Virus record (IMG/VR): IMGVR_UViG_3300021185_002316
Length of the DNA stretch: 64,000 nucleotides
Reading direction: 5' to 3' (one strand)
DNA from: an uncultured virus (IMG/VR IMGVR_UViG_3300021185_002316)
Taxonomy: Duplodnaviria; Heunggongvirae; Uroviricota; Caudoviricetes
In this document: piece after piece, positions 5,778-59,114 of the stretch
How the letters are laid out: each line of letters starts with the position of its first letter
Numbering within the stretch: the stretch's first letter is position 1
Notes under the pieces: generated by a model
What the model was told of the DNA's origin: nothing
Database searches by the model: none
Seen by the model: the letters and a program-made list of their open reading frames with translations, nothing else
Program-made: the position numbers and the translations under genes

Positions 5778-5786
5778 ACCAAAATT

Positions 5787-9406: not shown

Positions 9407-9685
9407 ATGGCAAAAGAACTTAATGAGGATACAGCAGTACAGGTAAGTATAAAAACTTTAGCAAGTATCGCATTTTTAATAGCTACATTAGTCGGTATGT
9501 GGTTTACGCTTCAAGCAGATATAGCAGAAGCTAAGTTATTGCCTGAACCACAAGATCCTGAGATTACTCGTATGGAGTTTGATATGAAAGATCAGTTGAT
9601 TCGTCAAACTATTATGTCTACACAAGAAGATGTGACAGAAATAAAAGACGATCTAAAAGCAATTAAACAAAAATTGTATGAATAA
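9407..9685 (+). CDS. Single-TM coiled-coil membrane protein (paralog of 11053-11379)
   Basis: N-terminal TM ending GMWFTLQADI, then a coiled coil. Confidence 0.65.
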   Translation: MAKELNEDTAVQVSIKTLASIAFLIATLVGMWFTLQADIAEAKLLPEPQDPEITRMEFDMKDQLIRQTIMSTQEDVTEIKDDLKAIKQKLYE

Positions 9686-11379: not shown

Positions 11380-11834
11380 TGAAATTAAGTAAAAACTTTG
11401 CGTTGTCTGAAATAACACACAGCAACACAGCTAAAAGATTAGGGATAGATAATGAGCCGACTGAAACGCACTTACAAAATATGCAGCATCTTGTGGACAA
11501 TCTTATACAGCCTCTTCGTGACTCTATTGGTCCTATCAGGATCAGTAGCGGTTATCGTAACCCGTCGCTCAATCGTGCTATTGGGGGCAGCGTTTCTTCG
11601 CAGCATTGCAAAGGTGAGGCATTGGACATCCAGTTTTGGCAGATGGGGAAGATGATGAACGAACTTATTTATGAGTGGATTTTAGATTCAGGTTTAGAGT
11701 TTGATCAGATGATAAATGAATTTGATTTTGCTTGGATACATATATCTTTAAAAGCTAAAGATAATAGAAAGCAAGTACTCGAAGCCTACAAAAATGAGGA
11801 TGGAGATACTAAATACAGATACGCAGACGTATGA
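11379..11834 (+). CDS. Endolysin, peptidase M15A family
   Basis: SSGYR..LN..IGG...SQH..GEALD and WIHIS zinc-binding motifs. Confidence 0.88.
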   Translation: MKLSKNFALSEITHSNTAKRLGIDNEPTETHLQNMQHLVDNLIQPLRDSIGPIRISSGYRNPSLNRAIGGSVSSQHCKGEALDIQFWQMGKMMNELIYEWILDSGLEFDQMINEFDFAWIHISLKAKDNRKQVLEAYKNEDGDTKYRYADV

Positions 11835-12217
11835 GTAAGTTATTAGATTTTTTAGGCGGTGGAGTAGTTAAGCAGGTCGGTGATGTGCTTGATAACTTAA
11901 CTACGTCTAAAGAAGAAAAACTAGAAGCTCAACGTAAGATACAGGAGGTTCTTATGCAGGCTGAGTCGCAGGCTCAAGAACAAGTAACTAAGCGTTGGGA
12001 GGCTGACATGAAATCTGATAACTGGCTTAGTAAAAATATTAGACCGTTGATATGTATATTTCTGACAGCTATGTTTGTTGTTATTTCACTTTTTGATGGA
12101 AACGCTGGTGGATTCCAAATTGCTCCAGCTTATATACCAATATATCAAACCTTATTAATAACTGTTTATGGAGCTTACTTTGCAGGAAGATCTATAGAAA
12201 AGATAAAGAAAAAATAA
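11831..12217 (+). CDS. Holin (3TM / GTA-holin-like)
   Basis: RWEADMKSDNWLSKNIRP, two TM helices, YFAGRSIEK; immediately downstream of the endolysin. Confidence 0.75.
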   Translation: MSKLLDFLGGGVVKQVGDVLDNLTTSKEEKLEAQRKIQEVLMQAESQAQEQVTKRWEADMKSDNWLSKNIRPLICIFLTAMFVVISLFDGNAGGFQIAPAYIPIYQTLLITVYGAYFAGRSIEKIKKK

Positions 12218-12939
12218 TGACATTAAACGAAATAGCATATAATCTATTAAATCTAGTGAGGGGTGGTAATTCTAATCAAGATGAAACTATCTCTATTGAG
12301 CAGATTAAATTTAATATAAAGCATTATCGTGCTATGTTTATTCGTAGAGATTTTGCAAAAAATAATGTTATATCTAGACATTCAGAGCAAGACTTAGGAT
12401 GTGTTGAACTTGAAAGAGTTAACGCTTCTCAATGCTGCAACTTACCTGTGACTTACTCAGTGTTTAGAAGTAAAACAAAAATACCTAAAACAGTAAGGTT
12501 AAATTTTAAAGAAGCCTTAACTTATATAGGAGATGTTACTGGAACTACTACAATACCGTTAGTAGATTCTCATAGTATACAGTGGCTTCCATACGATAAA
12601 TATACAAAAGGTAGGTATAAATCTTATATGATTGCAGATTATCTGTATATTTACAACGCAGATGGAATTGACACAGTTAATGTAAGAGGTATATTTGAAG
12701 ATCCAGATGAGGTTGCAAAGTACTCGCAATGTGGAGAGCAAGATCCTACAACAGGAGAATACTTTACCCCTTGCTATGATTCAGCAAAAGATCCATTTCC
12801 TATATCGATGGATATGATAAGTTTAATTAACCAAGGTATCACAAGCGGAGAGCTAACATTAATTACATCTACGTTTAATGATACCACTAACGATAGAGCG
12901 CAGGATAGGCCAACAGCTCCTGCACCTAATAATAACTAA
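12217..12939 (+). CDS. crAss-like tail ring / connector structural protein
   Basis: TLNEIAY...QIKFNIKHYRA...RGIFEDP...FPIS pattern, upstream of the IHF and tail-tube genes. Confidence 0.55.
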   Translation: MTLNEIAYNLLNLVRGGNSNQDETISIEQIKFNIKHYRAMFIRRDFAKNNVISRHSEQDLGCVELERVNASQCCNLPVTYSVFRSKTKIPKTVRLNFKEALTYIGDVTGTTTIPLVDSHSIQWLPYDKYTKGRYKSYMIADYLYIYNADGIDTVNVRGIFEDPDEVAKYSQCGEQDPTTGEYFTPCYDSAKDPFPISMDMISLINQGITSGELTLITSTFNDTTNDRAQDRPTAPAPNNN

Positions 12940-14040: not shown

Positions 14041-14208
14041 ATGGCTAAAAATAAAAAAGGAAAAGAGCAAGGAGCAGACGGCAAAGCTTGCTGGGAAGGT
14101 TACAGATATAACGGCACTGTAAATGGTAAAGATAAATGTGTAAAAATAAATCGCTATGGTGGCTTTATTGAAGAGCCATCTGTGGTAAATTTAGATAAGT
14201 TAACGTAA
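14041..14208 (+). CDS. Small 55-aa protein with CWEGY...DKCVK motif (missing from the ORF track)
   Basis: ATG at 14041 gives MAKNKKGKEQGADGKACWEGYRYNGTVNGKDKCVKINRYGGFIEEPSVVNLDKLT*. It fills the gap exactly, and its TAA overlaps the next ATG (TAATG). Confidence 0.8.
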   Translation: MAKNKKGKEQGADGKACWEGYRYNGTVNGKDKCVKINRYGGFIEEPSVVNLDKLT

Positions 14209-15089
14209 TGGCTATATATAGAACAGAATCAAGTAAGATAATAATACGTAAAGTATTTAGAGATCTAAGACTTCAACATAGTAATTGGATTGACGATGCT
14301 ATAGAATGGATAGGAGAAGCTTTAGAGCATATAGGGTCAAGTACACAGCTTGTGACTAAGACGTGTGTATTACCTATAAAAGATCACAGACATTTTTTAC
14401 CTGCAGACCTGTATTATATAAATCAAGTTGCTGTAAACTCAGCCGTTACTGATAAGATTGATCAAGATCTTGACTCTTTAATTGCAACAGTTAAGCATCT
14501 AAATAAAACTATTGAAGACGCTAAAGAGCAAGGCATGAACTACGACAATACAGTTGCCACGCTTCAAGAGATTAATTCTCGAATAGTTGTTTTAGAAAAT
14601 GCTTATTTTGAAGATGTTACTAGTTTAGCTCCTTTACAATATGGAGCTAGTACGTTTCATGATAGTATACATTGTGAGAGCTGTGTAAATAGAAACGCAA
14701 AAAACGAAGATACATACATTATAGATAACGGTTATATAAAAACTTCTTTTACTACAGGAAAGATATGCCTTAGCTATACAGTATTTCCTACTGACGGAGA
14801 TAACTTCCCTTTAGTGCCTGCAGACATTAGTTTTAAAGAAGCTATGTTTTGGTATATCTATAAAAAATTATTATTGTCTATGCCTACATTAGTTAATAAC
14901 GGTATAGATTACGCTTTTGCTGAAGAGCAATGGAAGTACTATTGTACTCAAGCTCGTAACGCTGCTAACTATCCAGATATAGATAGATATGAATCGTTTA
15001 TGAATCAATGGGTAAGAATGATCCCATCTTTAAATAAACATGATTTAGGTTTTGAGCAATTAAATACTAGAGAAAACTTACTAAGGTAA
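14208..15089 (+). CDS. Tail tubular / ring protein (crAss Ttub, P22 gp4-like)
   Basis: DAIEWIGEAL..IG, LPADLY, YIKTSF..G.ICLSY, FPLVP, EAMFWYI, W..YC.QAR. Confidence 0.75.
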   Translation: MAIYRTESSKIIIRKVFRDLRLQHSNWIDDAIEWIGEALEHIGSSTQLVTKTCVLPIKDHRHFLPADLYYINQVAVNSAVTDKIDQDLDSLIATVKHLNKTIEDAKEQGMNYDNTVATLQEINSRIVVLENAYFEDVTSLAPLQYGASTFHDSIHCESCVNRNAKNEDTYIIDNGYIKTSFTTGKICLSYTVFPTDGDNFPLVPADISFKEAMFWYIYKKLLLSMPTLVNNGIDYAFAEEQWKYYCTQARNAANYPDIDRYESFMNQWVRMIPSLNKHDLGFEQLNTRENLLR

Positions 15090-18000
15090 TGACGGAAAAA
15101 AGATTTTTAAAAGGACTATTTAAAGATACAGGGCAATTAGATCAACCTGAAAGTACGTGGAGATACGCGTTAAACGCCGTATTAAATACACAAAAAGGGG
15201 CAATATCTAATGAAGCTGGAGCTGAATATGTGGCTAAGATAGACCCAGATTTTAAAGCAATAGGAGCTATAGAAATTTCAGACGGTAGGGTAGTTTTATT
15301 TTTAAAAAACTTGACTGATAAGCAAGCAATGATAGTGCTGCTTAATAATAATATAGTTACAGTTTTGTTTCAACCTTCTCTTTTGTTTGATTTAAATTTT
15401 AATACATCTTATCCAATTGAGGGTACGTTTAAAATTGACTCTAAAGGGGATCTTGTTGTATATTGGGTAGATGATTTAAATCCACCTAGGGCGTTTAATG
15501 TTTCTAGACAACAAAGATCGTTATCTGAAGGTGGTGGAATGTTTAATCGTTTATATGGGTTAAATGCTCAATCTTTTCAAAATCAGTTTGATGTTACGTC
15601 GCATTTAGATATTTTAAATCTTTTTCCAAGCTCTGGACCTGTCCCTAAAATTAATATAAGTACTGATCCTTTAGATCCTACAATCAAAGAAGGTGGAGGA
15701 TTATTAACTGGTGTATACTATTTAGCGCTTGCGTACGTAGATGAAGATTTAGTAGCAACTAATTATTTGTCTATATCAGATCCTATTTCTATTGTAGAAG
15801 AATTCCAATTCACTAAGCCTACAACTAAAGTAGATGGAGCTAAAGCAGGGAGTCAAACTTCTAAATCAATTACCTGGGTAATAGATAATTTAAATCCTGA
15901 TTATAAGTATATTAGACCTATTGTTATACGTAAATTAGGCACAGCAGTTGATGCTTTTAAACTTAATGATGTAGCAAATATACCTTACGCTACAACAATC
16001 GTTTCTAAAAAAATTACTTTTTCTGGTGTAGAAGGAGTGTCTAGCGCTGCTGTAGCGGATGTTATAATAGACACAGTAGGCTACGAATCAGCTAAAACAA
16101 TTAATCAATTAGATAATGTTTTATATTTAGGAAACGTTACAAGTAATAAGGATGTAGGATTTCAAAAATACGCAAACGCAATACAAGTTGAATCTACAAT
16201 TGAACCTATTGCACATTTTGACCCATTTTATGCAAGTCAAGATAATCTTGAAACTGGTTTTGCTACATCAGCTATTGATGGAGGTTATGATATAGATGCT
16301 TCAAAATCTTATAGAAACTATATACTTAACTCTAAATATAGAGGGTATATGCGTGATGAAACGTATGCATTTTATGTGGCATTCATTCTAAAGGATGGAT
16401 CAATGTCTTATGCGTATCACATACCAGGGAGAGAAAATTTATATATTTCAGAAAAAACATCATTATCTGCAGGAGGTGATATGAATGAAACGCATATGTC
16501 TGCTTTAGGTCCGCATTCTAAAAAGTTTCATTTACTTGATAGTAGTAGTCCGTCGTTTTTAGTAGATAATTTTTACGAAAACAGAATAAGCGAACCAAAA
16601 CAGCAAATGAATTACTGGGAAAATTCTACAGAGTTATATCCAGACACAGAAAATTATGATATTTTTCATATAAAGTCCAACGGCACAAGCTCAAATGGTA
16701 CCGAAATTGAACCTAGCATTGCATTAAACAAAACATTAAGAAGTGAAAATGTACGTCACCACCACTTCCCATCTAATGATAATTATTTTAGAAGAAGTAT
16801 AAATGCTGGGCATTTAGGTAGTTCATCTATAGCTACGGCAAGTACTTCTAATTATGCAAATAATGTAGATTGGTCAGGTACAGTTAAGTTTTATAGAAGT
16901 GACAGCAATACAAGTTCATACGGAAATGTAGCAGGGGCAGCTAACATTCTAGCAATACATAACAATACAAAATATACAGGAGATCAAATGAGTGCGGCTT
17001 TATCTGCTGGATGGAGCCCTCCATTGCTATTTCAATCGGCAGGCTTAAGTAACATGATTAATGCTAACTTAGTAGGAGAAGATTTTTATAGAGAAGAAAG
17101 CACTGCAATAACAAATGCTAACAACGTTGGGACGGTCACAATTAATAACGGGGTGTACAATGGAGGTACAGGTATATTTGTAGCAGATCAAGCTATGACT
17201 ATCTCAAACATGAAATTTAAAGTTTGGTGGTTTAGAGCCGAATCTAACTTTACAACCATGAAAACAAGAGTTGTTATAGAGACGGCTAACAATGAAAGAT
17301 ATTATACTATACCGGATAATAATATTACAAATGATGATTGGGGAGTTTCTGGATACAACACATTTGCTGGTGTAAATCATTGGGATTATAATTATAAAAA
17401 TAACATTAACGAGATGTACCCGGAAGCCACAAGTTCAAACGGAACCGTATCTGGTACAGCAGTTCCTATTACTTTAGGGATAGGAGATAAAATGTGGGTT
17501 GAAGGTAGAGCTTTTATAGGGCATGACCCTGATAAAGGTATACGTCAGGCAGGTACAACAGAAAGTGATGGGCCACAACAGCCTTCTGGCTCGGATAATT
17601 ACTGGCAATTTGATATTGATACGACTCCTACTAGTGAGTATGATACAGCTGGCTATGACGCTACAATTTCGCACAATGTGCAAGCGTTAGGGTTTCACTT
17701 AAATAATTTTAAAATACCTAAAAGTATAGCAGACAAAGTCCAAGGGTTTAGAGTTTATAGAGCTAAAAGAAATCATGCAAATAAAACTATTCTAGGGCAA
17801 GATATATTACTACCTATGCCTGAGTTAACTACAGCTATAGGAGCTTGCTCTGAAGCTAGTACAGGAGCAGATAGCATTTTAGAAAGTCTTAGTGGGCAGC
17901 CAGAGCTATTCCACAAAAAAGAGCCATGGCCAGGACCTGCAAGTAATTACCCTGATGGATACAATCATTTTAGTTTCCACGACTTTAATCTTCTTAGAAC

Positions 18001-21000
18001 TAAGAATAGTTTAGCAGGGGCTACTCACATTAAACCTATTTATATGGTTAACAATCTTGTGTGGAATGGTCCAACTTTAAAGCAAGATAAAAAATCGTTA
18101 ACTACAATAGTAGACTACGATCCATTAACACCTAATGAATTGAAACAGCATTGGGGATACGATGTAGAATTTAATTGCTATGCTGAAGATATTAACTCTG
18201 CAATATTTATAGGGTTAGATTATGTTTTTAATGTTCAAAAATATAATGATGCTCCTGACGTACCAGAGTATAGATTTGCAAGATTATTGAATCAAAAAGC
18301 AAAAACTTACTTAAGAGGTGATAGCATATTTGACGCAACCGCTTTAGGTTTTGGGGGTAAAATAGTAAATAATTTTGGAGAGTCTGCAATTGTTTTGTCA
18401 ACTCAGCAATATATGGGGGCTTTAACATGCGCTCCAGACGGGACTGCTTCGGATGAGTCTGACTTTTTTGGTAAAGCTCCTTTAGATGCGCCGCCTTGGT
18501 TGGTTAATCAGCCTTTAATGGCTAGTATATCAAATAGTAATTCCGCAGACACTATTGCAAATACTCGGTATTTAAACTATATGGTAAATTTACATGCATA
18601 CAAAACAGATGTATATAAATCTATTGATAGCCAAGAGCTTGTTTGGACAGGGTATGAAGTAGTAGGAAAAGAGTTAGAAAACTTTATATTTAATGATGAC
18701 ACTACTTCAGATAAGTATTTAAATCACATAAAAGCTGGGCCTGAGTTTGTTTCAAGCGGGTACAACAAAGATACTATATATACTACTAAAAAAGACGCAA
18801 CACTTGTAGGGGCTGCTACTACTGGCTATTATACTAACGGTATTTTTGGAGGTGATACATTTATTTGTAGATACGGATTTGCGTCTGCAATAACGTCAAT
18901 TGATAATGCGTCTACGTCAAACCCTAAAAGAGCTATTTATTATAATATAGTTGAAAGCTCTGATAATATTAATTTTAGGCATGCAGAAGATAATGATAGC
19001 ATGTATTTTCCACATTCCCCTGCAAAAAATGTTTTAAAGAATGTAGGAGATAAAGATCTAACTCATCAAGATAACGTACGGTATAATGATAATTATTCTT
19101 CAGATAGTGATATAAGGACAGCTTTCCCGTTACCTCTTAGAGACACAACGCATACAGCTTTTCCTACTAGAGCACATAGAAGTGCTACTGCAGACAATAC
19201 TAGTATAATCGATAACTATAGAATCTTTTTAGCAAACCAGTATAAAGATCTACCTAAGAATAGAGGGGATTTATGGAAACTATCTAGCTTTAATAATTTA
19301 TTATATTTCCATATGGAGAACAGTCTGTTTGCTACAAAAGGTAAGCAAACAATGGAAATGAAAGATGGGACTGAAGCTTTTGTTGGAAGTGGGGATATAT
19401 TTGTTCAGCCTCCAGACGAGATACTTCAAACAGAACTTGGGTATGGAGGAACACAATCTCAGTGGGCCGCTCTTACTACAAGGTACGGATACTTTTTTGT
19501 AAATAAAAAAGACAGTAAGGTATTTTTGATGGCGCAAGCTCTTACAGATATAAGCGCTTTAGGGATGGAGTCTTGGTTTAAATCTAATTTAAAATTTGAA
19601 TTAGAGCGTTTTGGATTACCTGAAACTTTCGACAACCCTATAGTTGGTATTGGGCTTCACTCCGTATGGGACCCTGAGCAAAAAAGAATCGTTTTAACTA
19701 AAAGAGATAAAAGACCAACTCGAGAGTTTATACATAGATATGGTTCTGGAGTAAATCCATCCATACGATTTAATAATACTGCTATGCAGTACGAGCTAGT
19801 AGACAGCGTAACTACTACTACATCTACAGGGGAGGCGGGAGCTACTCCTACAGACAATTGGAATCTTTTTACTGAGCAATGGGAAGCAGGAAATGCATAT
19901 TTACTGCAGAGTTACGAAAGTTTCCAAGAATTTGGGCCTAGCGAAATACCTAATATATTACCTGCTAATGCAAGTGGGCAGTATAATTTACCGGTAGGTT
20001 CTTTAGTGCTTCTTGCTACATACAACCCATTTGGAGGATTAACTGCAACAGAGTATTTATATACTTTACCAACAGCTCCTATTGCGTATTGGGTAGATGA
20101 AGGAGGGTCTAATGCGTTAGTTATTAATACAGTAAGTAATATGGCTGCGCAATTTACTAATATAGCTGGTGTAGTAGTGTTTTATGAAAATCCTCAAACT
20201 TACGTTTCAACGTTAGAAGAAACTTCAAACACTAATGTAACGACTACTCTCATAGATTATAAGAACCCTACTTATTTTACAAATTCAGGGTGGAGTATAT
20301 CATTTAATCCTGAGATTAATGCGTGGGTGTCTTTCCATTCTTATATTCCTTATTTGTATTTTAATGCATTAGGAAGTTTTATGGCTTTAAGTGATACTGC
20401 ATCTGATATTCAAACTAATGATGCAGGTTCTAAGTTATTAGAGTTAGACAGTGTAGTATGGTCACATAGAGGTACTAATAATTTTACATATGGGCAATAT
20501 TACCAAAATTATGAAGATGCAGGTATTGATTTAGTAGAAGGTGATTTTGGAGATGACTTTCCAGAGTATTTTGATACTAACCCTTTTATCATTGATTTTG
20601 TTCATAATGAAAATAGAGCGATGGCGGCGTTATATTCTAGCATTGCATACACTGTAGATGTTGTAAACGCTAGTCAATCTAATTTATCAGAAGGAGGATT
20701 TGATCAATTTTACGTATACAATACTAACCAACTGTCTGGGCTACAAGATTTAAAGTACTTAGCTAACACAAGAAAAGTTGGGACAAATTGGAAGATTAAT
20801 TCGTTTAGAGATATGTCTAAACTATTAAAACTTGAAACATCAGATTCAGAAAATTATTGGCTTCATGGAGAAGATACTTTTCTTGGATCTCCCTTGCTTG
20901 AGTACACTACGACTACAGCAAACAATATGTTTGTTATAGACGGAATGAATGAAATTATAAATAATTCTTATATAGACAACGAAAAAATTTGGAGTTCTAG

Positions 21001-21112
21001 AAAAAAATTCGTAGACAAATGGGTAGGAATACGTTTAATTTGTCTGAATTTACGTAATAATTTAGTAAATTTGTACACCAGCTCTGTAGAAGCTAGAAAA
21101 TATTATCGATAA
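15089..21112 (+). CDS. Tail stabilisation / muzzle protein (crAss Tstab, P22 gp10-like)
   Basis: KGLFKD...YALN, YWVDDLNPPR, GYMRDETYAF, FGGDTFICRY, YGGTQSQW, WVSFHSYIP; follows Ttub. Confidence 0.8.
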   Translation: MTEKRFLKGLFKDTGQLDQPESTWRYALNAVLNTQKGAISNEAGAEYVAKIDPDFKAIGAIEISDGRVVLFLKNLTDKQAMIVLLNNNIVTVLFQPSLLFDLNFNTSYPIEGTFKIDSKGDLVVYWVDDLNPPRAFNVSRQQRSLSEGGGMFNRLYGLNAQSFQNQFDVTSHLDILNLFPSSGPVPKINISTDPLDPTIKEGGGLLTGVYYLALAYVDEDLVATNYLSISDPISIVEEFQFTKPTTKVDGAKAGSQTSKSITWVIDNLNPDYKYIRPIVIRKLGTAVDAFKLNDVANIPYATTIVSKKITFSGVEGVSSAAVADVIIDTVGYESAKTINQLDNVLYLGNVTSNKDVGFQKYANAIQVESTIEPIAHFDPFYASQDNLETGFATSAIDGGYDIDASKSYRNYILNSKYRGYMRDETYAFYVAFILKDGSMSYAYHIPGRENLYISEKTSLSAGGDMNETHMSALGPHSKKFHLLDSSSPSFLVDNFYENRISEPKQQMNYWENSTELYPDTENYDIFHIKSNGTSSNGTEIEPSIALNKTLRSENVRHHHFPSNDNYFRRSINAGHLGSSSIATASTSNYANNVDWSGTVKFYRSDSNTSSYGNVAGAANILAIHNNTKYTGDQMSAALSAGWSPPLLFQSAGLSNMINANLVGEDFYREESTAITNANNVGTVTINNGVYNGGTGIFVADQAMTISNMKFKVWWFRAESNFTTMKTRVVIETANNERYYTIPDNNITNDDWGVSGYNTFAGVNHWDYNYKNNINEMYPEATSSNGTVSGTAVPITLGIGDKMWVEGRAFIGHDPDKGIRQAGTTESDGPQQPSGSDNYWQFDIDTTPTSEYDTAGYDATISHNVQALGFHLNNFKIPKSIADKVQGFRVYRAKRNHANKTILGQDILLPMPELTTAIGACSEASTGADSILESLSGQPELFHKKEPWPGPASNYPDGYNHFSFHDFNLLRTKNSLAGATHIKPIYMVNNLVWNGPTLKQDKKSLTTIVDYDPLTPNELKQHWGYDVEFNCYAEDINSAIFIGLDYVFNVQKYNDAPDVPEYRFARLLNQKAKTYLRGDSIFDATALGFGGKIVNNFGESAIVLSTQQYMGALTCAPDGTASDESDFFGKAPLDAPPWLVNQPLMASISNSNSADTIANTRYLNYMVNLHAYKTDVYKSIDSQELVWTGYEVVGKELENFIFNDDTTSDKYLNHIKAGPEFVSSGYNKDTIYTTKKDATLVGAATTGYYTNGIFGGDTFICRYGFASAITSIDNASTSNPKRAIYYNIVESSDNINFRHAEDNDSMYFPHSPAKNVLKNVGDKDLTHQDNVRYNDNYSSDSDIRTAFPLPLRDTTHTAFPTRAHRSATADNTSIIDNYRIFLANQYKDLPKNRGDLWKLSSFNNLLYFHMENSLFATKGKQTMEMKDGTEAFVGSGDIFVQPPDEILQTELGYGGTQSQWAALTTRYGYFFVNKKDSKVFLMAQALTDISALGMESWFKSNLKFELERFGLPETFDNPIVGIGLHSVWDPEQKRIVLTKRDKRPTREFIHRYGSGVNPSIRFNNTAMQYELVDSVTTTTSTGEAGATPTDNWNLFTEQWEAGNAYLLQSYESFQEFGPSEIPNILPANASGQYNLPVGSLVLLATYNPFGGLTATEYLYTLPTAPIAYWVDEGGSNALVINTVSNMAAQFTNIAGVVVFYENPQTYVSTLEETSNTNVTTTLIDYKNPTYFTNSGWSISFNPEINAWVSFHSYIPYLYFNALGSFMALSDTASDIQTNDAGSKLLELDSVVWSHRGTNNFTYGQYYQNYEDAGIDLVEGDFGDDFPEYFDTNPFIIDFVHNENRAMAALYSSIAYTVDVVNASQSNLSEGGFDQFYVYNTNQLSGLQDLKYLANTRKVGTNWKINSFRDMSKLLKLETSDSENYWLHGEDTFLGSPLLEYTTTTANNMFVIDGMNEIINNSYIDNEKIWSSRKKFVDKWVGIRLICLNLRNNLVNLYTSSVEARKYYR

Positions 21113-45592: not shown

Positions 45593-45622
45593 AAAAAAGG
45601 GGGCACCTAAGCCCCTTTTTTT
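45593..45622. terminator. Bidirectional intrinsic terminator between the convergent gene blocks
   Basis: AAAAAAGGGGGC-ACCTAA-GCCCCTTTTTTT: GC stem flanked by an A-tract and a T-tract. Confidence 0.85.
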
Positions 45623-46029
45623 CTATTATCAAAATTCTTATGATTATTTAATACGTATTGAATAAACATTAAATTACACATAGCATGCCCAATATGAGAC
45701 TTGCCACTTTCAGAATCTAAATCTTCTCCTTTTTGAAAGGCGATAATATGTCTAAACAAGCTCCCTAATAACTCAGTTATAAGTTGCCCTTTCTTCCAAT
45801 TATCTCTAGAATATTTAGTTTCTCCAAACATCAAGACTTCAACAAGGGGTTCAAGTGATTCGAAATCAATTTGATCCCATTCTAGTTTACCCTTATTGTG
45901 TCTATCAGCATACCGTTGTTCATCTGGCCACTCTTTTGATCGGTTTATTACACCTGGTTTATCTACGTAAGCCACAGTTTTTTCTGTAACTAGATCGTAT
46001 TTATATCTTACAAAGTTTTCTTTTGACAT
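45607..46029 (-). CDS. dATP/dGTP diphosphohydrolase domain protein (DUF5664-like)
   Basis: N.GKL.W......L..L..VL.FG..KY..DNW.KG...SL.RH.......D.ESG..H..HA.CN. Confidence 0.8.
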   Translation of the reverse strand: MSKENFVRYKYDLVTEKTVAYVDKPGVINRSKEWPDEQRYADRHNKGKLEWDQIDFESLEPLVEVLMFGETKYSRDNWKKGQLITELLGSLFRHIIAFQKGEDLDSESGKSHIGHAMCNLMFIQYVLNNHKNFDNRKKGA

Positions 46030-47593: not shown

Positions 47594-48763
47594 TTACAAA
47601 GCATTCAGCTCAGCGACTTCCTTGTCAACTTGAGCTTTGCTTTCTAATTTTACCTTTACTGCTTCTGCCCTCATTTCTTGCCACTCGGCATCAGTCATAG
47701 CTGCATAGGTTGAACTGTGATAAATCGATCCATTTACTCCTGCAAGAGAAGAATGAACAAAGTACTGCTTGCAACGTATAGCACCATCTACATCATCAGG
47801 CACTGCACCAATATGCATAGGGTCCGCAAATATATTGTGGATCTCACCTGAATAGAACGCGATATACTTAAGGCCACCAATATGAAGACCTTTTACACAA
47901 GACTGAAAGTCATTGGTATTAACTTGGCTCCATGAAGCTAAGCTGTGTGTACAACCAACTTTGATAAAATGCCCTGGATTAGCAAATCCATTGTCGCCAA
48001 TACAAGAGAAGCTATCTCCACCTGCACCCATCATTGCAGGTTCAAATAAGCGGTCTTCTACGTGCTCAGGAAGGCCATCTCCTTGTATTTCACCAGTATC
48101 AGGATTGAACGTACGAGCGTAACGATCTACTTGCTCCCCTGTTTCTGTGTCATACTTATGCATAACCTCTTTAGATACTTTGTAACCATTAAGAAGACCC
48201 TCACGAGTAATCTTCATTTGATACATAGTAGCACGAGCAGTAGCAATTGCTTCACTTAGACCTTGCTCTTCCATGAGCTCTTCTTTGAGTTTAGGGTGCA
48301 CATACTGCATATTAACAAAGTTAAAGAAGCGATTAGAGAAATCTACTCCTCTATCACATTCAGCTTTCTTTGCTAATATAGGATTACGCAACCATCTGGT
48401 CCACATTTTAACAAGTGGTTCAAATGATACGCCTTTATCAATAGACTCAAATATTCTATCTACCAATGCTTGAGGCATAGGAATAGAAGAAACAACTCCT
48501 TCACTCTTAAGGAAGAACTCGCCTGTATTCTTGTTTACATGAATGTAAGCACATTTTGACTCTACTGTTTTAGTATAGTCTACAACACATAGCTCTGCAA
48601 ACTCACTCATAATGGTTTTGTAGTCGTCCATGGTTGTTACTGAAGATGCTTCGTCAGCAAGTTGCATCATTGATGCATAAGTTTCTTCAGTGTACTGCAC
48701 TGCAAATGGTGTTTCACCATAAGAGCCGCAGATTTTGTCGTCGATAACGTTAATTGTGATCAT
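47594..48763 (-). CDS. rIIB: rIIB-like protein
   Basis: PLVKMW.RWL.NP, F.F, IT.EG...GYK.V, C..GLH.G...Y; directly downstream of the rIIA-like gene. Confidence 0.75.
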   Translation of the reverse strand: MITINVIDDKICGSYGETPFAVQYTEETYASMMQLADEASSVTTMDDYKTIMSEFAELCVVDYTKTVESKCAYIHVNKNTGEFFLKSEGVVSSIPMPQALVDRIFESIDKGVSFEPLVKMWTRWLRNPILAKKAECDRGVDFSNRFFNFVNMQYVHPKLKEELMEEQGLSEAIATARATMYQMKITREGLLNGYKVSKEVMHKYDTETGEQVDRYARTFNPDTGEIQGDGLPEHVEDRLFEPAMMGAGGDSFSCIGDNGFANPGHFIKVGCTHSLASWSQVNTNDFQSCVKGLHIGGLKYIAFYSGEIHNIFADPMHIGAVPDDVDGAIRCKQYFVHSSLAGVNGSIYHSSTYAAMTDAEWQEMRAEAVKVKLESKAQVDKEVAELNAL

Positions 48764-48788
48764 GTGTTAATTGATATTAAATTGGTTA

Positions 48789-48820
48789 CTAATTTACGAA
48801 AATTTAAGAAGATGCGCAAC
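48789..48820 (-). promoter_or_regulatory. Possible Bacteroidota sigma-70-type promoter upstream of rIIB
   Basis: Minus strand GTTG-N20-TAAATTAG, a variant of TTTG-N19-21-TAnnTTTG; overlaps a hairpin at 48806-48839. Confidence 0.4.
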
Positions 48821-51627
48821 TATTGTGCGCTATCTTCTTCTAATTCAGGGGTTTCTGGTAAAACATCAGTGACGTCCCACTCATCTTTCCCTTTGCATTT
48901 CAAATAAGAGATTATTTCTTTCTCTAATTCTGGGCTAAGAGCTTTCTCTCTACTTATACCCTCTATAGCAGAAAGTAAATGCTTAGTGTCTTCTGAAAAT
49001 TCTAGTATGTTATTATACATATCTAAAATATTTAGATTAACTGCAACAGTTTCTCCTATGTCTGAAAGAACAAATAACTCAGTACTCTTCGCACTAATTA
49101 GTTCAGCTGCATTAGCTTCACCTTCTACTTGCTTGCAATATATTTGAAAATCCATAAGCTTTTGAGCTTGTGCAAACACATCAGTTCCGTCTAGATTTCT
49201 ATGACGATAATACTCAAAATTAGATTCTCTAGCTTTTAAGACTAAATCGTAGATCTCTTTAAGCCCAGGATTAATGTTAATAAAACTCGATAAGAATCCA
49301 GCATCAGAAATTTTGTCTAATTTTGTCGCTGTAAACCACTTAATCATTGATTCATCCATAGTATATCCTCCTTTATCATTTACTTGTAAGAAGAATTCAC
49401 TAATGTGTTTACAATTTGGATTCTTCTTGATGTATTTAACTTTATTTTCACTTACTCTGATTAACTGTGGTGTATCCCATGCTCGAACTGCTTTGGCAGT
49501 CCAGTCATGAAATTTACCTTTGTCTTCCCCATATGATATTCTAAGAGAAACGGCTGGTTCTTCATAATAAAATACTGGCTGATTTTGACAGCTATCCCAA
49601 GAAGACCAACTGTTATCAGGGTAAACTTCTTTAAAAGTAGGAGCTTGCACATGCATAACTTTAGCTGCTAGGTGCATTAGATCTTCATCCGCTTTAGTGC
49701 AATAATAAATACGAGACTCGCTTTCCATAAGATCTTTGGCCTTTGGCTCTATCTTGTCAAGGGTGTACTGTTTATCATCATTACGACTTTTGTCAAATCT
49801 AAGAGAATATGCAACCATACGTTTCTCTATTTCACGACGCTCTGCAGGAGAGATGTCGTCAAACTTAGATACTTCCATAGCTTGCTCTTCTTCTGTAGTG
49901 AACTCCGTAGTCCAGTCTTCAGGTACTACTACATCATCATAAGAATGATAAAACTCAGACTCTTTAAAGTATTTAAGTACAGCTGCACGTTTACGTGAGA
50001 CTCTACTTTTCTCTTTAATTAGTGCAAGCTTAGCTTCTCCTTGAGCTATAGCAATTTTACCGTCAAACTTAGCATCTAAGTCTTCTAGAGTAAATACTGA
50101 AGGACGACATTCTTGGTCTCCACCTTTAATAAGATATGCATCTGTCAATCTATTGAAAGATACATTCTCTTTAAAGTAGAAATGCATAGGATCTATACCG
50201 CCCCACACTACTAATTTGTCATCTCTTACAGATTTAAACTTACCTTTCTCAACGTCATATAAAAGCTTAGTAATCTTAAATCCTTCGAATAATTTAGTTG
50301 GTATAGCGTATCTAATTCTCTTGTCTCCAGGGAACGTAGGGCTAATCATGTCTTTATCTATAATATTAGATAATTTGTTTAGAACACGATTCTCACTACG
50401 AGCACCACTAACAAGCGCACGAGTCTTAGAAATCCAGTCAACAAAATCTGTAGTGTTTAGCTCTTCCTGAACTACATTAGTAGCCTCTATCGCAGCTTTC
50501 TTGATAATACCCTGAACATAGTTTTTAGTAGCTTCATTCCATATTACCTTCTCACGCGACGGAGTTACGTCGACACCTTCTTGTATAACTGTTTCTACGC
50601 CATTGTCATCTACTACAACTTGCCTCATAGGACATTTAAATGCAATAGCGCCATACAGTTGCTCCATTTCTAACTCTCGGAAATCTATGTGACCATAGTT
50701 AATACCTGTTTCAGCTTTAGGATTCTTTACTACAAGTATATGCGGTTTAGAATACGTATAGCCATCACTGATAATAAGATGATCTGAAGAGTATATTACT
50801 TCATTTTTAAAGTCAACTTCTTCGGTCCATCCACTTTCGTGTAAAACTGTAAAGTTAACATTGTTCAAATAATTTAATTGCTCTTCTACAGCTTCCTTGT
50901 ACTTACGTCTATTATGTTTCTTGGTTCTGAAGCTTACTTCCGTGTAATTCTTAGAGTCCGATTCTTCATAATATACTTTAGTACCATCTGAGAATGTAAC
51001 AAATGGGTTTTGTTTACCTGCTTCTACATTAAAAGCTGGTATAATGAAATCTGTCTTGTAATTGTAGCAATTACATTTAAATCTCATTCCGTTGTAGACA
51101 GTTTCTATAGTGTAGAAATCTACACCTGTAGACAATGCTGCTTTAGCACCTAAGCCAAACGCACCAAAGTTCTCTGATGTGTTACGCTTAGTAGAATATC
51201 CTAATTCTAGGACACCTTCTAGTCTGCGTGCACCAATACCTACGCCGTAGTCCATTATTGCAAATGTATCACAAAATCCTGTACCTTCTTTTTCAGTATA
51301 AGTCAAGTCTACAGTGTTCTTTACATGATCTAAGGAAGCAACATTGTAATACTCTATATTAAAGTTACTGTCTTCGTACTGTGCGCCTCCACGCGTAATG
51401 TAATAGTCTTCTGGCTTCTTCTCTCCGCTTAGTATCTCTAGAGCTATCTCCTTTTCCCTCTGTGAATCACAAGCATTAGTTGTAAGTTCACGTATGGTAC
51501 TCGGAATTGGCATAGAGTACTGTGTTGATTGAAGAATGTCAAAGACCATTCTCTTTGCTCCTTCGTTGATCTTTTTCTCGATCCCTTTAGAGCCTTTAAT
51601 CTGTGTGTCAATAGTTTTTATACTCAT
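48820..51627 (-). CDS. rIIA: rIIA-like protein with N-terminal GHKL/HATPase domain
   Basis: IRELTTNACDS, DYGVG, YSTK..T....G.FGLG.K, VTPSRE. Confidence 0.8.
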   Translation of the reverse strand: MSIKTIDTQIKGSKGIEKKINEGAKRMVFDILQSTQYSMPIPSTIRELTTNACDSQREKEIALEILSGEKKPEDYYITRGGAQYEDSNFNIEYYNVASLDHVKNTVDLTYTEKEGTGFCDTFAIMDYGVGIGARRLEGVLELGYSTKRNTSENFGAFGLGAKAALSTGVDFYTIETVYNGMRFKCNCYNYKTDFIIPAFNVEAGKQNPFVTFSDGTKVYYEESDSKNYTEVSFRTKKHNRRKYKEAVEEQLNYLNNVNFTVLHESGWTEEVDFKNEVIYSSDHLIISDGYTYSKPHILVVKNPKAETGINYGHIDFRELEMEQLYGAIAFKCPMRQVVVDDNGVETVIQEGVDVTPSREKVIWNEATKNYVQGIIKKAAIEATNVVQEELNTTDFVDWISKTRALVSGARSENRVLNKLSNIIDKDMISPTFPGDKRIRYAIPTKLFEGFKITKLLYDVEKGKFKSVRDDKLVVWGGIDPMHFYFKENVSFNRLTDAYLIKGGDQECRPSVFTLEDLDAKFDGKIAIAQGEAKLALIKEKSRVSRKRAAVLKYFKESEFYHSYDDVVVPEDWTTEFTTEEEQAMEVSKFDDISPAERREIEKRMVAYSLRFDKSRNDDKQYTLDKIEPKAKDLMESESRIYYCTKADEDLMHLAAKVMHVQAPTFKEVYPDNSWSSWDSCQNQPVFYYEEPAVSLRISYGEDKGKFHDWTAKAVRAWDTPQLIRVSENKVKYIKKNPNCKHISEFFLQVNDKGGYTMDESMIKWFTATKLDKISDAGFLSSFININPGLKEIYDLVLKARESNFEYYRHRNLDGTDVFAQAQKLMDFQIYCKQVEGEANAAELISAKSTELFVLSDIGETVAVNLNILDMYNNILEFSEDTKHLLSAIEGISREKALSPELEKEIISYLKCKGKDEWDVTDVLPETPELEEDSAQ

Positions 51628-57050: not shown

Positions 57051-57308
57051 TTATCTAAATTTTGCCACTTTACCGTTAGAACCTAGTGATTTAGGGTCTC
57101 TGTAAGTTGGCATTGTCGATGGTCTCTTGTATGTTTTTGGGTATCCAAATCCAAACACAAGCTCAAATATACCAGTAGTTACAAAACCTGGTTTGTTTTT
57201 CTCTGCTAATTTCTTAGCATGTCTTTCTCTCCAGTATTCAGTTTCTCTTCCCTTGGAAACAAATGGTTTCTTATCAAGAGGCTTATAGTCTAAATATCCT
57301 TTTTTCAA
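57051..57308 (-). CDS. Hypothetical basic protein
   Basis: 85-aa ORF coupled (ATGA) to the SPL-like gene. Confidence 0.55.
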   Translation of the reverse strand: MKKGYLDYKPLDKKPFVSKGRETEYWRERHAKKLAEKNKPGFVTTGIFELVFGFGYPKTYKRPSTMPTYRDPKSLGSNGKVAKFR

Positions 57309-58162
57309 AATATGTATCTGATTTTATTCCATGGTATAATTTGACCATGAAGGTTTATAAATTGGTTAATGTATTCTCGTTTACGGTGTCTTTCGTATCT
57401 AATGTTTCTCCCTCCATACTGTGAGATTTTATCCTCTTGTATATCTGGTGCCCACAGTTGTGCTTCTGCGTCCGGTTTATCTATAAGATTAGCTCTATGC
57501 TTGTTCTCGTTGTGGGTTAGAAATATAACCTCTGCAAGAACTTGCTTTTTGTAATCTACATAGTCGTCTAACATTTGAAACAACTGCTTGTAATCCTCTA
57601 GCCATGTCTCCGTCACAATGACTGGACTGAAGTTAACATGGACGTCATACCCTGCATCTATAAATGCATCGATAGCTTTAATCCTATCAATGATTTTAGA
57701 TGTAGCGGGTTCATGTAACGTAGACATGTGCTGAGGCATCAAACTGAAACGTATGCGTATCTTACCTTCAGGGTTATACTCAATCAACTTAGGATTTACG
57801 TACTTGGTAGCGAACGAGCCCATGGCTACAGGGTGAGTTCTAAAAAACTCAAAGATGTTCTCCCAGTCGTGATGTCTAAGGTGCAATGCAAAGTCTTCGT
57901 TACAACTAACGTCGTAAGTAGTGTACTGTGCGTGTGTCTGATTAGGTTTGTTAACGTGTGTAAAGAATGCATGGTTATTTACTGCTGTGAGTATATCTCC
58001 TGTATTCTGTGCTATCGTCAACCCATTAGGTTTGTTACGTTTCATGTAACAGTAACTACAATCGTACAAACATCCATGCCCAAAAGAAGGTGTAATAAAG
58101 TCTGTAGATCTACCGCTTGTCTTAATGTCAAGGGCTTTTCTATTTACCTTTTTTATTAACAT
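57305..58162 (-). CDS. splB: Spore photoproduct lyase-family radical SAM protein
   Basis: GCLYDCSYCY (CxxxCxxC); DVSCNED (matches SPL EASCTSD with the H-donor Cys); FATK; RIRFSL; EP.TS....RI.A; GY.V.....P. Confidence 0.8.
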   Translation of the reverse strand: MLIKKVNRKALDIKTSGRSTDFITPSFGHGCLYDCSYCYMKRNKPNGLTIAQNTGDILTAVNNHAFFTHVNKPNQTHAQYTTYDVSCNEDFALHLRHHDWENIFEFFRTHPVAMGSFATKYVNPKLIEYNPEGKIRIRFSLMPQHMSTLHEPATSKIIDRIKAIDAFIDAGYDVHVNFSPVIVTETWLEDYKQLFQMLDDYVDYKKQVLAEVIFLTHNENKHRANLIDKPDAEAQLWAPDIQEDKISQYGGRNIRYERHRKREYINQFINLHGQIIPWNKIRYIF

Positions 58163-59114
58163 ACTTTCTCTCGTTTATGGTGAATGTACTAAGTTCAGCT
58201 TCGTATGGTATCATACCTAACATGCCGTCCCTGTTCTTCTCTATATGCACTGCTAGCAAACCTTCTGGTTCTTCATCGCAGTACAGATCTGTAATACCAT
58301 AGAGATCGAAGGGTCTCTGTAGCATCATAACAACATGAGCATCCTGACCTATACTGTCACCACCAAACAAATCTGTTAGCATTGGTTGGTACTGATTACG
58401 GGCACGGTGTTCTTGTTCTATATTCCTATTTAGCTGTGATAACAGTATATTAATAACCCCAAACTTAGCTTGCATATACATACACCCTTTTGATATTTGG
58501 TTTAGTTTTTGCAATTCTGTGTCAGCGTTAGCTAATATTAACCTAGAGTGATCGTAAACATTTATCACCAAAGTATCCGGATAGCTCTCTGCTATCTCTG
58601 CGTTGGTTCTCTTGATGAATGTTATGTCTTTAGGTACGTTATTAAAATAGATAGGATATTCAGTATAAGCAGCAACTTTCTCTGCATATAGATCATACTC
58701 GTCTTGTCTCAACTTGTTTTGCACTGATAGTAAATCCATTACCTCTTTCTTGACATCCTTAGCACCAGCACGTAATATTTGCTGATGACCAGGCATCTCG
58801 AAAGACCAGTACAATACCATTAAGTTTTTCTTTGAGTTAGTATCTAAAAGATCGAAGATCATCTGATTACTGAATGCGCTTTTACCTACACCTGGACGAC
58901 CTGCTATGACATACATTTTGCCAGGTTGCAGACCACCTAGTAGGTTCCTGTTTAATCTTGTCCACTTAGTGGGGTAAACCACACGCTGTCCAAGCATACC
59001 TTTCTTTATCTCACTAAGTGAGGTATTTACTGAGTCTGCTATGCTATGAAATCCTTTGTCTTTAAAGAGATCTTGTGATGCGTGGTTTGGTTTTGTCTCG
59101 TGTGTCATTTTCAT
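58140..59114 (-). CDS. dnaB: DnaB-like replicative helicase (C-terminal domain only)
   Basis: AGRPGVGKS, SFEM, LSQLNR, SIGQDAHVVM, KNRDG. Confidence 0.9.
   Translation of the reverse strand: MKMTHETKPNHASQDLFKDKGFHSIADSVNTSLSEIKKGMLGQRVVYPTKWTRLNRNLLGGLQPGKMYVIAGRPGVGKSAFSNQMIFDLLDTNSKKNLMVLYWSFEMPGHQQILRAGAKDVKKEVMDLLSVQNKLRQDEYDLYAEKVAAYTEYPIYFNNVPKDITFIKRTNAEIAESYPDTLVINVYDHSRLILANADTELQKLNQISKGCMYMQAKFGVINILLSQLNRNIEQEHRARNQYQPMLTDLFGGDSIGQDAHVVMMLQRPFDLYGITDLYCDEEPEGLLAVHIEKNRDGMLGMIPYEAELSTFTINERKYVNKKGK

What the first reader, a model, noticed from the sequence alone, without database searches (positions are those of the whole stretch)
57305..58162. Spore photoproduct lyase homolog inside the replication operon
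Seen: a radical SAM CxxxCxxC plus SPL-specific motifs, including the SC.xD Cys equivalent to the Bacillus H-donor Cys; the gene overlaps the end of dnaB. Known: the spore photoproduct forms in dehydrated or A-like DNA under UV, and Bacteroidota do not sporulate. Inference: tightly packed virion DNA in sunlit water may accumulate SP-type lesions that the phage repairs without light after injection. Alternatively the enzyme makes or removes another base modification.
Basis: partly seen in the sequence, partly recalled or inferred. Interest (0 to 1): 0.7.

Follow-up and report, generated by a model that had tools for sequence, protein, structure and literature searches.

The report
Short photoproduct-lyase gene in marine phage
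An uncultured marine crAss-like phage carries an intact, strongly conserved, shortened relative of the iron-sulfur enzyme that repairs UV-damaged spore DNA, probably giving the phage light-independent repair of a thymine cross-link, though no enzyme of this branch has ever been assayed.

Summary
ORF 57305-58162 (-) encodes a 285-aa radical SAM protein with CxxxCxxC. It overlaps the DnaB-like gene by 23 nt.

It belongs to the spore photoproduct lyase (SPL) superfamily, but not to the Bacillus branch. It scores 85 bits against TIGR04070 (cut-off 400). It is a short form of the uncharacterised TIGR03886 branch (321.7 bits over profile positions 62-346) and lacks the first ~60 residues.

The predicted fold matches Geobacillus SPL residues 61-341 (Z 31.3). 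The cluster cysteines, both relay tyrosines, the H-donor Cys (C87) and the thymine-contacting Arg/Glu/Tyr are conserved. The two phosphate-contacting residues are not.

The window is a crAss-like phage. The gene forms one viral clade found in 316 IMG/VR stretches. It is under strong purifying selection (dN/dS 0.06-0.16), sits at several positions within replication modules, and occurs in contigs of four RNA libraries.

No hypermodification partner genes were found. Bacteroidota of the Cytophagales carry full-length homologues, often beside a near-canonical SPL, so the gene is not alien to the phylum.

Most likely it performs light-independent direct reversal of an SP-type thymine dimer in phage DNA. 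That such lesions arise in virions is untested.

This scan reported the same short phage SPL on eight other windows.

The parts
57305..58162 (-). Short-form SPL-family radical SAM gene (285 aa)
   Evidence: ORF. PF20903 E 8.8e-27. TIGR03886 321.7 bits over profile positions 62-346. AF2 model pLDDT 96.5. VIA Z 31.3 to 4FHF residues 61-341.
58046..58072 (-). Codons for C31-x3-C35-x2-C38-Y39: the [4Fe-4S] cluster motif with both relay tyrosines (Y37, Y39)
   Evidence: Aligned to C90/C94/C97 and Y96/Y98 of G. thermodenitrificans SPL. Invariant in 27 of 27 viral-clade rows.
57893..57907 (-). Codons for S86-C87-N-E-D90: the Cys equivalent to the H-atom donor Cys140/141
   Evidence: Alignments. C87 is present in 27/27 viral, 13/13 cellular short, 12/12 cellular long and 6/6 type A rows.
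57395..57439 (-). Codons for residues 242-256: predicted beta-hairpin with aromatic Y249 at the tip (equivalent of the SPL base-flipping hairpin, Tyr305)
   Evidence: Strands 242-246 and 252-256 in the model. Position 249 is Y25/F2 in the viral clade and F in type A. Hairpin role from PMC3467042 (passages read).
57314..57316 (-). Codon for Y283 in the conserved C-terminal R-Y-I-F: equivalent of the lesion-binding Tyr339
   Evidence: Y in 27/27 viral and 6/6 type A rows. The structural alignment runs to chain residue 341. Role of Tyr339 from PMC3467042 section 14.
58140..58162 (-). 23-nt overlap between the end of the DnaB-like gene and the SPL start
   Evidence: Read directly from the DNA.
58140..59114 (-). 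DnaB-like replicative helicase, upstream neighbour (context)
   Evidence: DnaB_C E 1.6e-31. phrog_19 E 2.8e-36.
57051..57308 (-). 85-aa small ORF overlapping the SPL stop by 4 nt. It belongs to a conserved family of unknown function that follows SPL in many relatives. A link to SPL is not shown.
   Evidence: A small ORF with the F-G-F-x-Y-P motif occurs in 47 of 81 viral loci; aligned. No hit in Pfam, PHROGs, NCBIfam or the Atlas.

Best explanation
The gene encodes a working radical SAM DNA-repair enzyme of the spore photoproduct lyase superfamily. It is the short form of the TIGR03886 branch.

Inferred mechanism, by homology to the solved Geobacillus enzyme:
1. A host reductant reduces the [4Fe-4S] cluster held by C31/C35/C38.
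2. SAM is cleaved to a 5'-deoxyadenosyl radical.
3. A flipped-out, methylene-bridged thymine dimer (5-thyminyl-5,6-dihydrothymine or a close analogue) is held by R138, E211, Y283 and the S16-S19 loop.
4. The radical abstracts H from C6, and the bridge breaks.
5. C87 donates an H atom to the 3'-thymine radical.
6. Y39/Y37 relay the radical back.

The gene is expressed with the replication genes. It would therefore clear such lesions from the injected or replicating phage genome without light.

Shown here: homology, fold, residue conservation, purifying selection, spread among marine crAss-like phages, and presence in RNA libraries.

Inferred: the substrate, the chemistry, and where the lesion arises.
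For: **Family and fold**
- PF20903 E 8.8e-27; TIGR03886 E 5.6e-96.
- AF2 model pLDDT 96.5.
- Foldseek top six hits are all SPL (E 2.8e-19, TMq 0.88); the next is RlmN at E 1.1e-4.
- VIA Z 31.3, rmsd 1.9 A, 275 residues aligned to chain residues 61-341; next best Z 14.1.

**Residues**
- The equivalents of C90/94/97, Y96, Y98, C140, K174, R193, S195, E268, Y339 and the S76-S79 loop are all present. All are invariant in 27/27 viral-clade rows. Their roles come from PMC3467042.

**Selection**
- dN/dS is 0.06-0.16 in the 9 pairs with unsaturated dS.
- 136 of 285 positions are invariant among 58 distinct sequences.

**Conservation compared with the rest of the genome**
- Against complete relative G002, SPL is 73% identical. 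That is second of 18 shared proteins, whose median is about 35%. It ranks fourth of 30 against G003.
- Its place in the replication block varies.

**Spread**
- 316 of 321 IMG/VR stretches encode a relative.
- The viral sequences form one clade (SH-aLRT 97).

**Presence in RNA libraries**
- Contigs at least 99% alike cover the gene in 4 of 4 RNA-labelled runs laid, from 4 studies.

**No modification pathway**
- No partner genes in 44 window ORFs or in 117 ORFs of two complete relatives.

**Published hint**
- An 'SPL family protein' is induced by UVC in non-sporulating Curtobacterium (PMC12029717, passages read).
Against: - No member of the TIGR03886 branch has a known substrate. No assay was found in the papers searched.
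- The protein scores far below the cut-off for true SPL: 85 bits against 400.
- It lacks the first ~60 residues of the N-terminal domain.
- The two residues that hold the intra-lesion phosphate in Geobacillus SPL (R273, K309) align with N218 and N253. Instead, the branch has its own invariant basic residues R42, R255 and K261. Backbone recognition, and perhaps the lesion, may therefore differ.
- 6 of 7 Bacteroidota genomes tested with this branch also have a near-canonical SPL. The two genes are adjacent in 12 of 80 loci. This suggests the two paralogues do different jobs.
- Spore photoproduct has not been shown to form in hydrated phage particles. No such report was found.
- No SASP-like gene was seen.
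- Contigs from RNA libraries cannot exclude carried-over DNA.
Confidence: 0.6

Rival explanations
1. It is a DNA-repair lyase, but for a different lesion than classical intrastrand 5R-SP. Candidates are another methylene-bridged or dihydropyrimidine-type dimer, an interstrand or other-stereoisomer SP, or a lesion in single-stranded or RNA-paired DNA at replication forks. On this view the TIGR03886 branch is a distinct enzyme specificity.
For: - The near-canonical (type A) and TIGR03886 (type B) genes co-occur in 6 of 7 Bacteroidota genomes tested. They are adjacent in 12 of 80 loci.
- The two branches are separated by long, fully supported branches.
- R273 and K309 are replaced by Asn in type B. 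R42, R255 and K261 are invariant only in type B.
- The N-terminal domain is partly missing.
Against: All residues that contact the two thymine bases, and the full H-atom relay, are identical to SPL. The bound bases are therefore probably the same.
Confidence: 0.22
2. It is a DNA base-modifying enzyme, like the SPL-fold radical SAM isomerase gp53 of Pseudomonas phage M6. It would help build or remove a hypermodified thymine that protects phage DNA from host nucleases.
For: - There is a precedent: M6 gp53 was modelled on SPL and isomerises N-alpha-glycinylthymine in DNA (PMC8989533, passages read).
- The gene sits among replication genes.
Against: - BLASTP to M6 gp53 finds only 13/44 identities around the cluster motif.
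- gp53 matches the PA0069-type radical SAM family, not the SPL families.
- No 5-hmdU kinase, aGPT-Pplase, PLP decarboxylase or thymidylate-synthase-like hydroxymethylase was found in 44 window ORFs or in 117 ORFs of two complete 88-94 kb relatives.
- Chromosomal homologues lie in unrelated neighbourhoods.
Confidence: 0.08
3. It acts on something other than DNA (RNA, a nucleotide or a protein), or it is a decaying passenger gene.
For: - No biochemical data exist for this branch.
- The gene's position in the genome is variable, as for mobile accessory genes.
Against: - dN/dS of 0.06-0.16 and 136 invariant positions rule out decay.
- The DNA-lesion-contacting residues and the hairpin are conserved.
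- The only solved structures with a close fold are SPL.
Confidence: 0.05

Closest known systems
Spore photoproduct lyase SplB/SPL of Bacillus and Geobacillus (TIGR04070; PDB 4FHC-4FHG)
   Same: - Radical SAM fold with the SPL-specific C-terminal helices and beta-hairpin (Z 31.3, rmsd 1.9 A).
- CxxxCxxC motif, both relay tyrosines, and the H-donor Cys.
- SAM-binding Lys/Ser.
- Thymine-contacting Arg/Glu/Tyr and the Ser loop.
   Different: - About 21% identity. Scores 85 bits against a cut-off of 400.
[quoted passage not shown]
- Phosphate-binding R273 and K309 are replaced by Asn.
- Encoded by a phage and expressed with replication genes, not in a forespore programme.
TIGR03886 'spore photoproduct lyase family protein' of non-sporulating bacteria, e.g. 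the 343-aa Rufibacter protein (489.6 bits)
   Same: - Same branch in the tree.
- 47-51% identity.
- Shares the type-B-only invariant residues R42, R255 and K261.
   Different: - The phage form starts at profile position 62, so it falls below the cut-off (321.7 bits against 437.55).
- It is viral and monophyletic.
- The function of the bacterial family is itself untested. The only hint is UVC induction in Curtobacterium (PMC12029717).
Short-form chromosomal homologues (288-294 aa) in Legionella, Odyssella/Paracaedibacteraceae, Neolewinella and Alkanindiges
   Same: Same truncated architecture and the same branch.
   Different: - 48-52% identity.
- Many have a two-residue insertion in the cluster motif, giving Cx3Cx4C.
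- They are cellular, with no replication-gene context.
Pseudomonas phage M6 gp53, radical SAM N-alpha-glycinylthymine isomerase (PMC8989533)
   Same: A phage-encoded radical SAM enzyme that acts on thymine derivatives in DNA. The authors modelled it on SPL.
   Different: - No detectable family-level similarity.
- 480 aa.
- Embedded in a kinase/transferase/PLP cluster that is absent here.

Membership tests
Canonical spore photoproduct lyase (SplB; TIGR04070) | Radical SAM CxxxCxxC cluster motif | tested here: met
   C31/C35/C38 align with C90/C94/C97.
Canonical spore photoproduct lyase (SplB; TIGR04070) | Score above the curated equivalog cut-off (400 bits) | tested here: not met
   85 bits.
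Canonical spore photoproduct lyase (SplB; TIGR04070) | Fourth conserved Cys (H-atom donor, C140/C141) and the Tyr96/Tyr98 relay | tested here: met
   C87, Y37 and Y39 align with them and are invariant in the viral clade.
Canonical spore photoproduct lyase (SplB; TIGR04070) | Residues contacting the thymine bases of the lesion (R193, E268, Y339; S76-S79 loop) | tested here: met
   R138 and E211 by profile alignment. Y283 and S16-S19 by alignment with near-canonical proteins, themselves aligned full-length to 4FHC. This rests on sequence alignment; side-chain geometry was not inspected.
Canonical spore photoproduct lyase (SplB; TIGR04070) | Residues binding the intra-lesion phosphate (R273, K309) | tested here: not met
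   The aligned positions are N218 and N253 in all 27 viral rows. Type A rows keep R and K.
Canonical spore photoproduct lyase (SplB; TIGR04070) | N-terminal alpha/beta domain (four-stranded sheet, three helices) | tested here: not met
   Model residues 1-285 align with chain residues 61-341. Profile matches start at position 62-65.
Canonical spore photoproduct lyase (SplB; TIGR04070) | Beta-hairpin with an aromatic residue at the tip | tested here: met
   Strands 242-246 and 252-256. Position 249 is Y in 25 and F in 2 of 27 viral rows.
Canonical spore photoproduct lyase (SplB; TIGR04070) | Cleaves 5R-SP to two thymines in vitro and in vivo | not testable with these tools
   Needs biochemistry.
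TIGR03886 SPL-family protein (type B) | Score above the curated cut-off (437.55 bits) | tested here: not met
   321.7 bits, matching profile positions 62-346 only. The full-length Rufibacter homologue scores 489.6.
TIGR03886 SPL-family protein (type B) | Falls on the type B side of the split from near-canonical SPL | tested here: met
   The split has SH-aLRT 100 in a 111-row tree. The TIGR03886 score is about four times the TIGR04070 score.
M6 gp53-type thymidine hypermodification isomerase | Sequence similarity to gp53 | tested here: not met
   Only 13/44 identities at the cluster motif. Different NCBIfam matches.
M6 gp53-type thymidine hypermodification isomerase | Neighbouring 5-hmdU kinase, amino-acid:DNA transferase, PLP decarboxylase and dUMP hydroxymethylase | tested here: not met
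   None among 44 window ORFs or 117 ORFs of two complete relatives. The part of this phage's genome outside the window could not be read.

The most novel reading that the evidence does not exclude
UV-exposed marine virus particles, with DNA packed at near-crystalline density, or their replicating genomes, accumulate a spore-photoproduct-type thymine cross-link as a biologically important lesion. Marine crAss-like phages have spread among themselves a dedicated, truncated radical SAM lyase to reverse it in the dark. The TIGR03886 branch would then be a second, previously unrecognised SP-lyase specificity. It would be used by non-sporulating, radiation- and desiccation-tolerant bacteria and by phages.
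Probability: 0.25. Interest if true: 0.8.

Novelty: new variant of a known kind. Interest (0 to 1): 0.6.

Why it matters
Spore photoproduct repair is textbook biology of endospores. A strongly selected SPL-type gene shared by hundreds of marine phage contigs would mean one of two things. Either the 'spore' lesion, or a close analogue, matters outside spores: in virus particles, or in infected cells of sunlit waters. Or the SPL fold has a second DNA-repair specificity that nobody has characterised.

Either outcome is directly testable with a small, well-behaved protein (285 aa, confidently modelled). It bears on how ocean viruses survive sunlight, which is a major term in viral decay.

The paired near-canonical and TIGR03886 genes in Hymenobacteraceae offer a natural comparison.

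Tried and rejected
- **Own genome.** The window's own assembly is not held. The part of this phage outside the window could not be checked. Two complete relatives (G002, G003) were used instead.
- **GenBank phages.** tblastn found no match at E 1e-5. At E <= 1 it found only two human-faecal phage records at 24.7% identity. A blastn of the ring-protein region found nothing.
- **Genome-contig scan.** A 12-row alignment worked.
- **SPL and the 85-aa ORF.** No test was made of whether the 85-aa downstream protein binds SPL. The Atlas gave no usable hit for that protein.
- **Promoters and terminators.** The scan around the gene gave no more sites than shuffles did: 22 against 22.7 promoter-like, 3 against 3.6 terminator-like.
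- **Literature.** Seven searches found no paper on SPL in crAss-like or marine phages, and none on SP in phage capsids. PMC3204975 mentions SPL only in passing.
- **RNA libraries.** Depth in the RNA-library contigs cannot rank genes or prove transcription.
- **MAG contigs.** Whether the 'Rickettsiales' MAG contigs with 56-71% identical copies are phage contigs is not settled. Two of the four MAGs searched hold a Crass_capsid gene, but I did not check that it lies on the same contig.

Full report
**1. The observation**

The window holds an ATG-started ORF at 57305..58162 on the minus strand, 285 aa long. The protein carries C31-x3-C35-x2-C38 followed by Tyr39.

Pfam places it in SPL (PF20903, E 8.8e-27, profile positions 65-337 of 338). 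The generic Radical_SAM model falls below its cut-off.

The ORF upstream (58140..59114, minus strand) is a DnaB-like helicase (DnaB_C, E 1.6e-31; phrog_19). Reading the DNA shows the helicase TAG ending at 58140 and the SPL ATG at 58162. The overlap is 23 nt.

**2. What the window is**

Pfam finds CrAss_Ring_2 (12217-12939), CrAss_Ring_1 (14208-15089) and the crassvirus muzzle protein (15089-21112). Three ORFs of 1648-2440 aa follow them.

From about 46 kb onward the genes run on the minus strand and form a replication block. It contains:
- family A DNA polymerase;
- a DnaA_C-like protein;
- an SNF2/ResIII helicase;
- DnaB;
- SPL;
- two small ORFs;
- a Sak4-like AAA_24 ATPase;
- primase;
- exonucleases;
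- rIIA/rIIB-like proteins;
- a 5'-3' exonuclease.

So this is an uncultured crAss-like phage.

The window's own assembly is not held. Two complete relatives were fetched (G002, 94,285 bp; G003, 88,499 bp; CheckV 100%). They carry the crassvirus capsid and ring proteins and one SPL each. Their tail proteins have a Por_Secre_tail sorting domain, a Bacteroidota hallmark.

Near-identical DNA occurs in marine, seawater, viral and microbial-mat metagenomes. Twenty runs from 16 studies hold the stretch or a part of it; two of them may be the source.

**3. Which family**

NCBIfam separates two models:
- The protein scores 321.7 bits (E 5.6e-96) against TIGR03886, 'spore photoproduct lyase family protein'. 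The match covers only profile positions 62-346, so it stays under the 437.55-bit cut-off.
- It scores only 85 bits against TIGR04070, the true SPL equivalog (cut-off 400).

A scan of one genome per prokaryote species with a 12-row alignment found 568 relatives among 598 matched stretches. I examined the best 80:
- They are mostly Cytophagales (Rufibacter, Pontibacter, Adhaeribacter, Spirosoma, Fibrella and others), Sphingobacteriales, and Neolewinella, at 47-51% identity.
- Some are Legionella, Paracaedibacteraceae and other Pseudomonadota.
- By first-start ORF length, 62 are long (about 343-351 aa) and 18 are short (about 288-303 aa).

The Rufibacter long form passes the TIGR03886 cut-off with 489.6 bits.

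In 12 of the 80 loci a second SPL gene lies next door. Eleven of these are Hymenobacteraceae. This second gene (type A) scores about 320 bits against TIGR04070. It aligns end to end with the Geobacillus structure sequence (243 bits, E 3.7e-71).

Of seven Bacteroidota genomes with a TIGR03886-type gene that I tested, six also have a type A gene.

Outside those lineages the family is rare:
- 2 of 301 genomes in the order of the Kordia MAG. One is the seed genome itself; the other has an in-frame stop.
- 3 of 401 genomes in the phylum of Rufibacter. Two of these are seeds.

So SPL-family genes do exist in non-sporulating Bacteroidota, but not in most of them.

**4. Tree**

I built a 111-row tree with quick IQ-TREE, rooted on six type A proteins.
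- Type A splits from everything else with support 100.
- The long Cytophagales proteins form a clade (99) near the base.
- The short forms form a larger group (support 85).
- All 25 viral rows, plus two MAG contigs at 71% identity, form one clade inside the short-form group (97).

The rows were chosen by me: 24 of the 80 IMG/VR loci, 27 of the 80 cellular loci, and 53 full-length cluster representatives. The remaining rows were left out to keep the tree small. The root rests on the outgroup alone.

**5. Structure and residues**

AlphaFold2 with the 56-row alignment gives pLDDT 96.5 and pTM 0.93.

Foldseek's six best PDB matches are all Geobacillus SPL (E 2.8e-19, TMq 0.88). The next match is RlmN at E 1.1e-4.

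VIA-align gives Z 31.3, rmsd 1.9 A and 275 aligned residues. Model residues 1-285 align with chain residues 61-341. The next entry has Z 14.1. [quoted passage not shown]

I mapped residues using the pairwise and profile alignments to 4FHC, the full-length alignment of type A to 4FHC, and the 111-row alignment.

| Geobacillus SPL | Phage protein | Role |
|---|---|---|
| C90 / C94 / C97 | C31 / C35 / C38 | [4Fe-4S] cluster |
| Y96 / Y98 | Y37 / Y39 | radical relay |
| C140 | C87 | H-atom donor |
| K174 / S195 | K120 / S140 | SAM binding |
| R193 / E268 / Y339 | R138 / E211 / Y283 | contact the dihydrothymine (section 14 of PMC3467042) |
| S76-S79 loop | S16-S19 | holds the 3' thymine |
| Y305 (hairpin tip) | Y249 | aromatic tip of the hairpin; Y or F in all 27 viral rows |

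All other residues in the table are invariant in the 27 viral-clade rows.

Two residues are not kept. R273 and K309, which coordinate the intra-lesion phosphate, align with N218 and N253. The TIGR03886 branch instead has invariant R42, R255 and K261, which type A lacks. I could not inspect coordinates, so whether these replace the missing contacts is open.

**6. Selection, mobility, expression**

*Selection.* Among the 81 viral loci the gene is 71-100% identical to the window's copy. Neighbouring genes fall to 22-33% (DnaB, SNF2 helicase) or about 51% (polymerase). Nei-Gojobori dN/dS is 0.06-0.16 in the nine pairs where dS is not saturated. 136 of 285 positions are invariant among 58 distinct sequences.

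*Mobility.* The gene occupies at least four positions, always inside the replication block:
- DnaB-SPL-small ORFs-Sak4, as in the window;
- helicase-SPL-small ORF-...-DnaB;
- rIIA-SPL-rIIB;
- DnaB-SPL-Sak4.

Against G002, SPL (73%) ranks second of 18 shared proteins, next to the holin and endolysin. Against G003 it ranks fourth of 30. High identity together with a shifting position fits strong constraint plus exchange between phages.

*Expression.* Contigs at least 99% alike cover the gene in all four RNA-labelled runs laid. For example, one 3152-nt contig spans 55967-59118 with one differing letter. These are assembled contigs, so strand, ends and level are unknown, and DNA carry-over cannot be excluded.

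**7. Rivals**

The one known phage radical SAM enzyme that works on DNA bases is M6 gp53. It isomerises glycinyl-thymine and was modelled on SPL by its authors (PMC8989533, passages).
- I fetched it. BLASTP finds only 13 of 44 identities around the cluster motif.
- NCBIfam places gp53 near the PA0069 family, not near SPL.
- Its partner genes are absent from 44 window ORFs and from 117 ORFs of the two complete relatives.

I therefore rate a hypermodification role as unlikely.

A more serious rival is that the TIGR03886 branch repairs a lesion other than classical 5R-SP. Three results point that way: the A/B gene pairs in Hymenobacteraceae, the changed phosphate contacts, and the missing N-terminal piece. 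The unchanged base contacts argue that the bound bases are still two thymines.

**8. What is known, and novelty**

Seven full-text searches found nothing on SPL in crAss-like or marine phages, or on SP in phage particles. That library lacks most subscription journals.

GenBank phages (50,697 records) hold no close relative. IMG's automatic annotation already calls some of these proteins 'spore photoproduct lyase'.

Earlier agents of this scan reported the same short phage SPL on eight other windows. I reached my reading before that look-up, and those notes are not independent evidence.

I class it as a new variant of a known kind: a truncated, virus-borne member of an uncharacterised SPL branch.

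**9. Verdict**

- That it is an intact, selected SPL-superfamily radical SAM enzyme: about 0.95.
- That it reverses an SP-type thymine dimer in DNA without light: about 0.6.
I put it near 0.25-0.3.

Interest: 0.6.

Noticed in passing
window 57051-57308 (-): An 85-aa ORF overlaps the SPL stop by 4 nt. It belongs to a conserved small-protein family: an N-terminal K-K-G-Y-x-D-Y-x-P, a Lys-rich linker, F-G-F-x-Y-P, and in most members a C-terminal G-S-N-G-K. The family is present in 47 of 81 viral loci, usually right after SPL. It has no hit in Pfam, PHROGs, NCBIfam or the Atlas. Whether it works with SPL is unknown; the complex predictor was unavailable.
   Followed up: partly
L103:3532-4611 and 4818-5849; L130:3607-4734 and 4818-5849; ten further loci: Hymenobacteraceae, and one Catalimonadaceae, carry a near-canonical SPL gene directly beside the TIGR03886-type gene. 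This is a paralogue pair in non-sporulating bacteria.
   Followed up: partly
L096, L098, L099, L101, L106, L107, L109 (cellular short forms): In these short-form homologues the cluster motif reads Cx3Cx4C. Two extra residues sit before the third Cys, in place of the canonical Cx3Cx2C.
   Followed up: no
protein P0121 (451 aa, metagenomic): One cluster representative, 58% identical, fuses a DUF4326 domain (PF14216, E 2.8e-10) to the N-terminus of a short SPL.
   Followed up: partly
window 45607-46029 (-): A 140-aa protein has the N-terminal domain of dATP/dGTP diphosphohydrolase (PF18909, E 3e-27; phrog_801). No PurZ-like partner was seen in the window ORFs scanned.
   Followed up: no
window 9407-9685, 11379-11834, 11831-12217 (+): A 92-aa ORF, the M15 endolysin and the holin are 70-85% identical to those of the divergent relatives G002 and G003. 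Structural and replication genes are 23-60% identical. This is the same pattern as SPL and suggests exchange of accessory cassettes.
   Followed up: partly
L072-L075, ORF starting 15 nt after SPL: In one group of viral contigs a D12-class N6-adenine DNA methyltransferase (PF02086, E 4.7e-18) follows SPL in place of the small ORF.
   Followed up: partly
window 47594-51627 (-): There is an rIIA-like (935 aa) and rIIB-like (389 aa) pair. In another group of relatives the SPL gene sits between these two genes.
   Followed up: no
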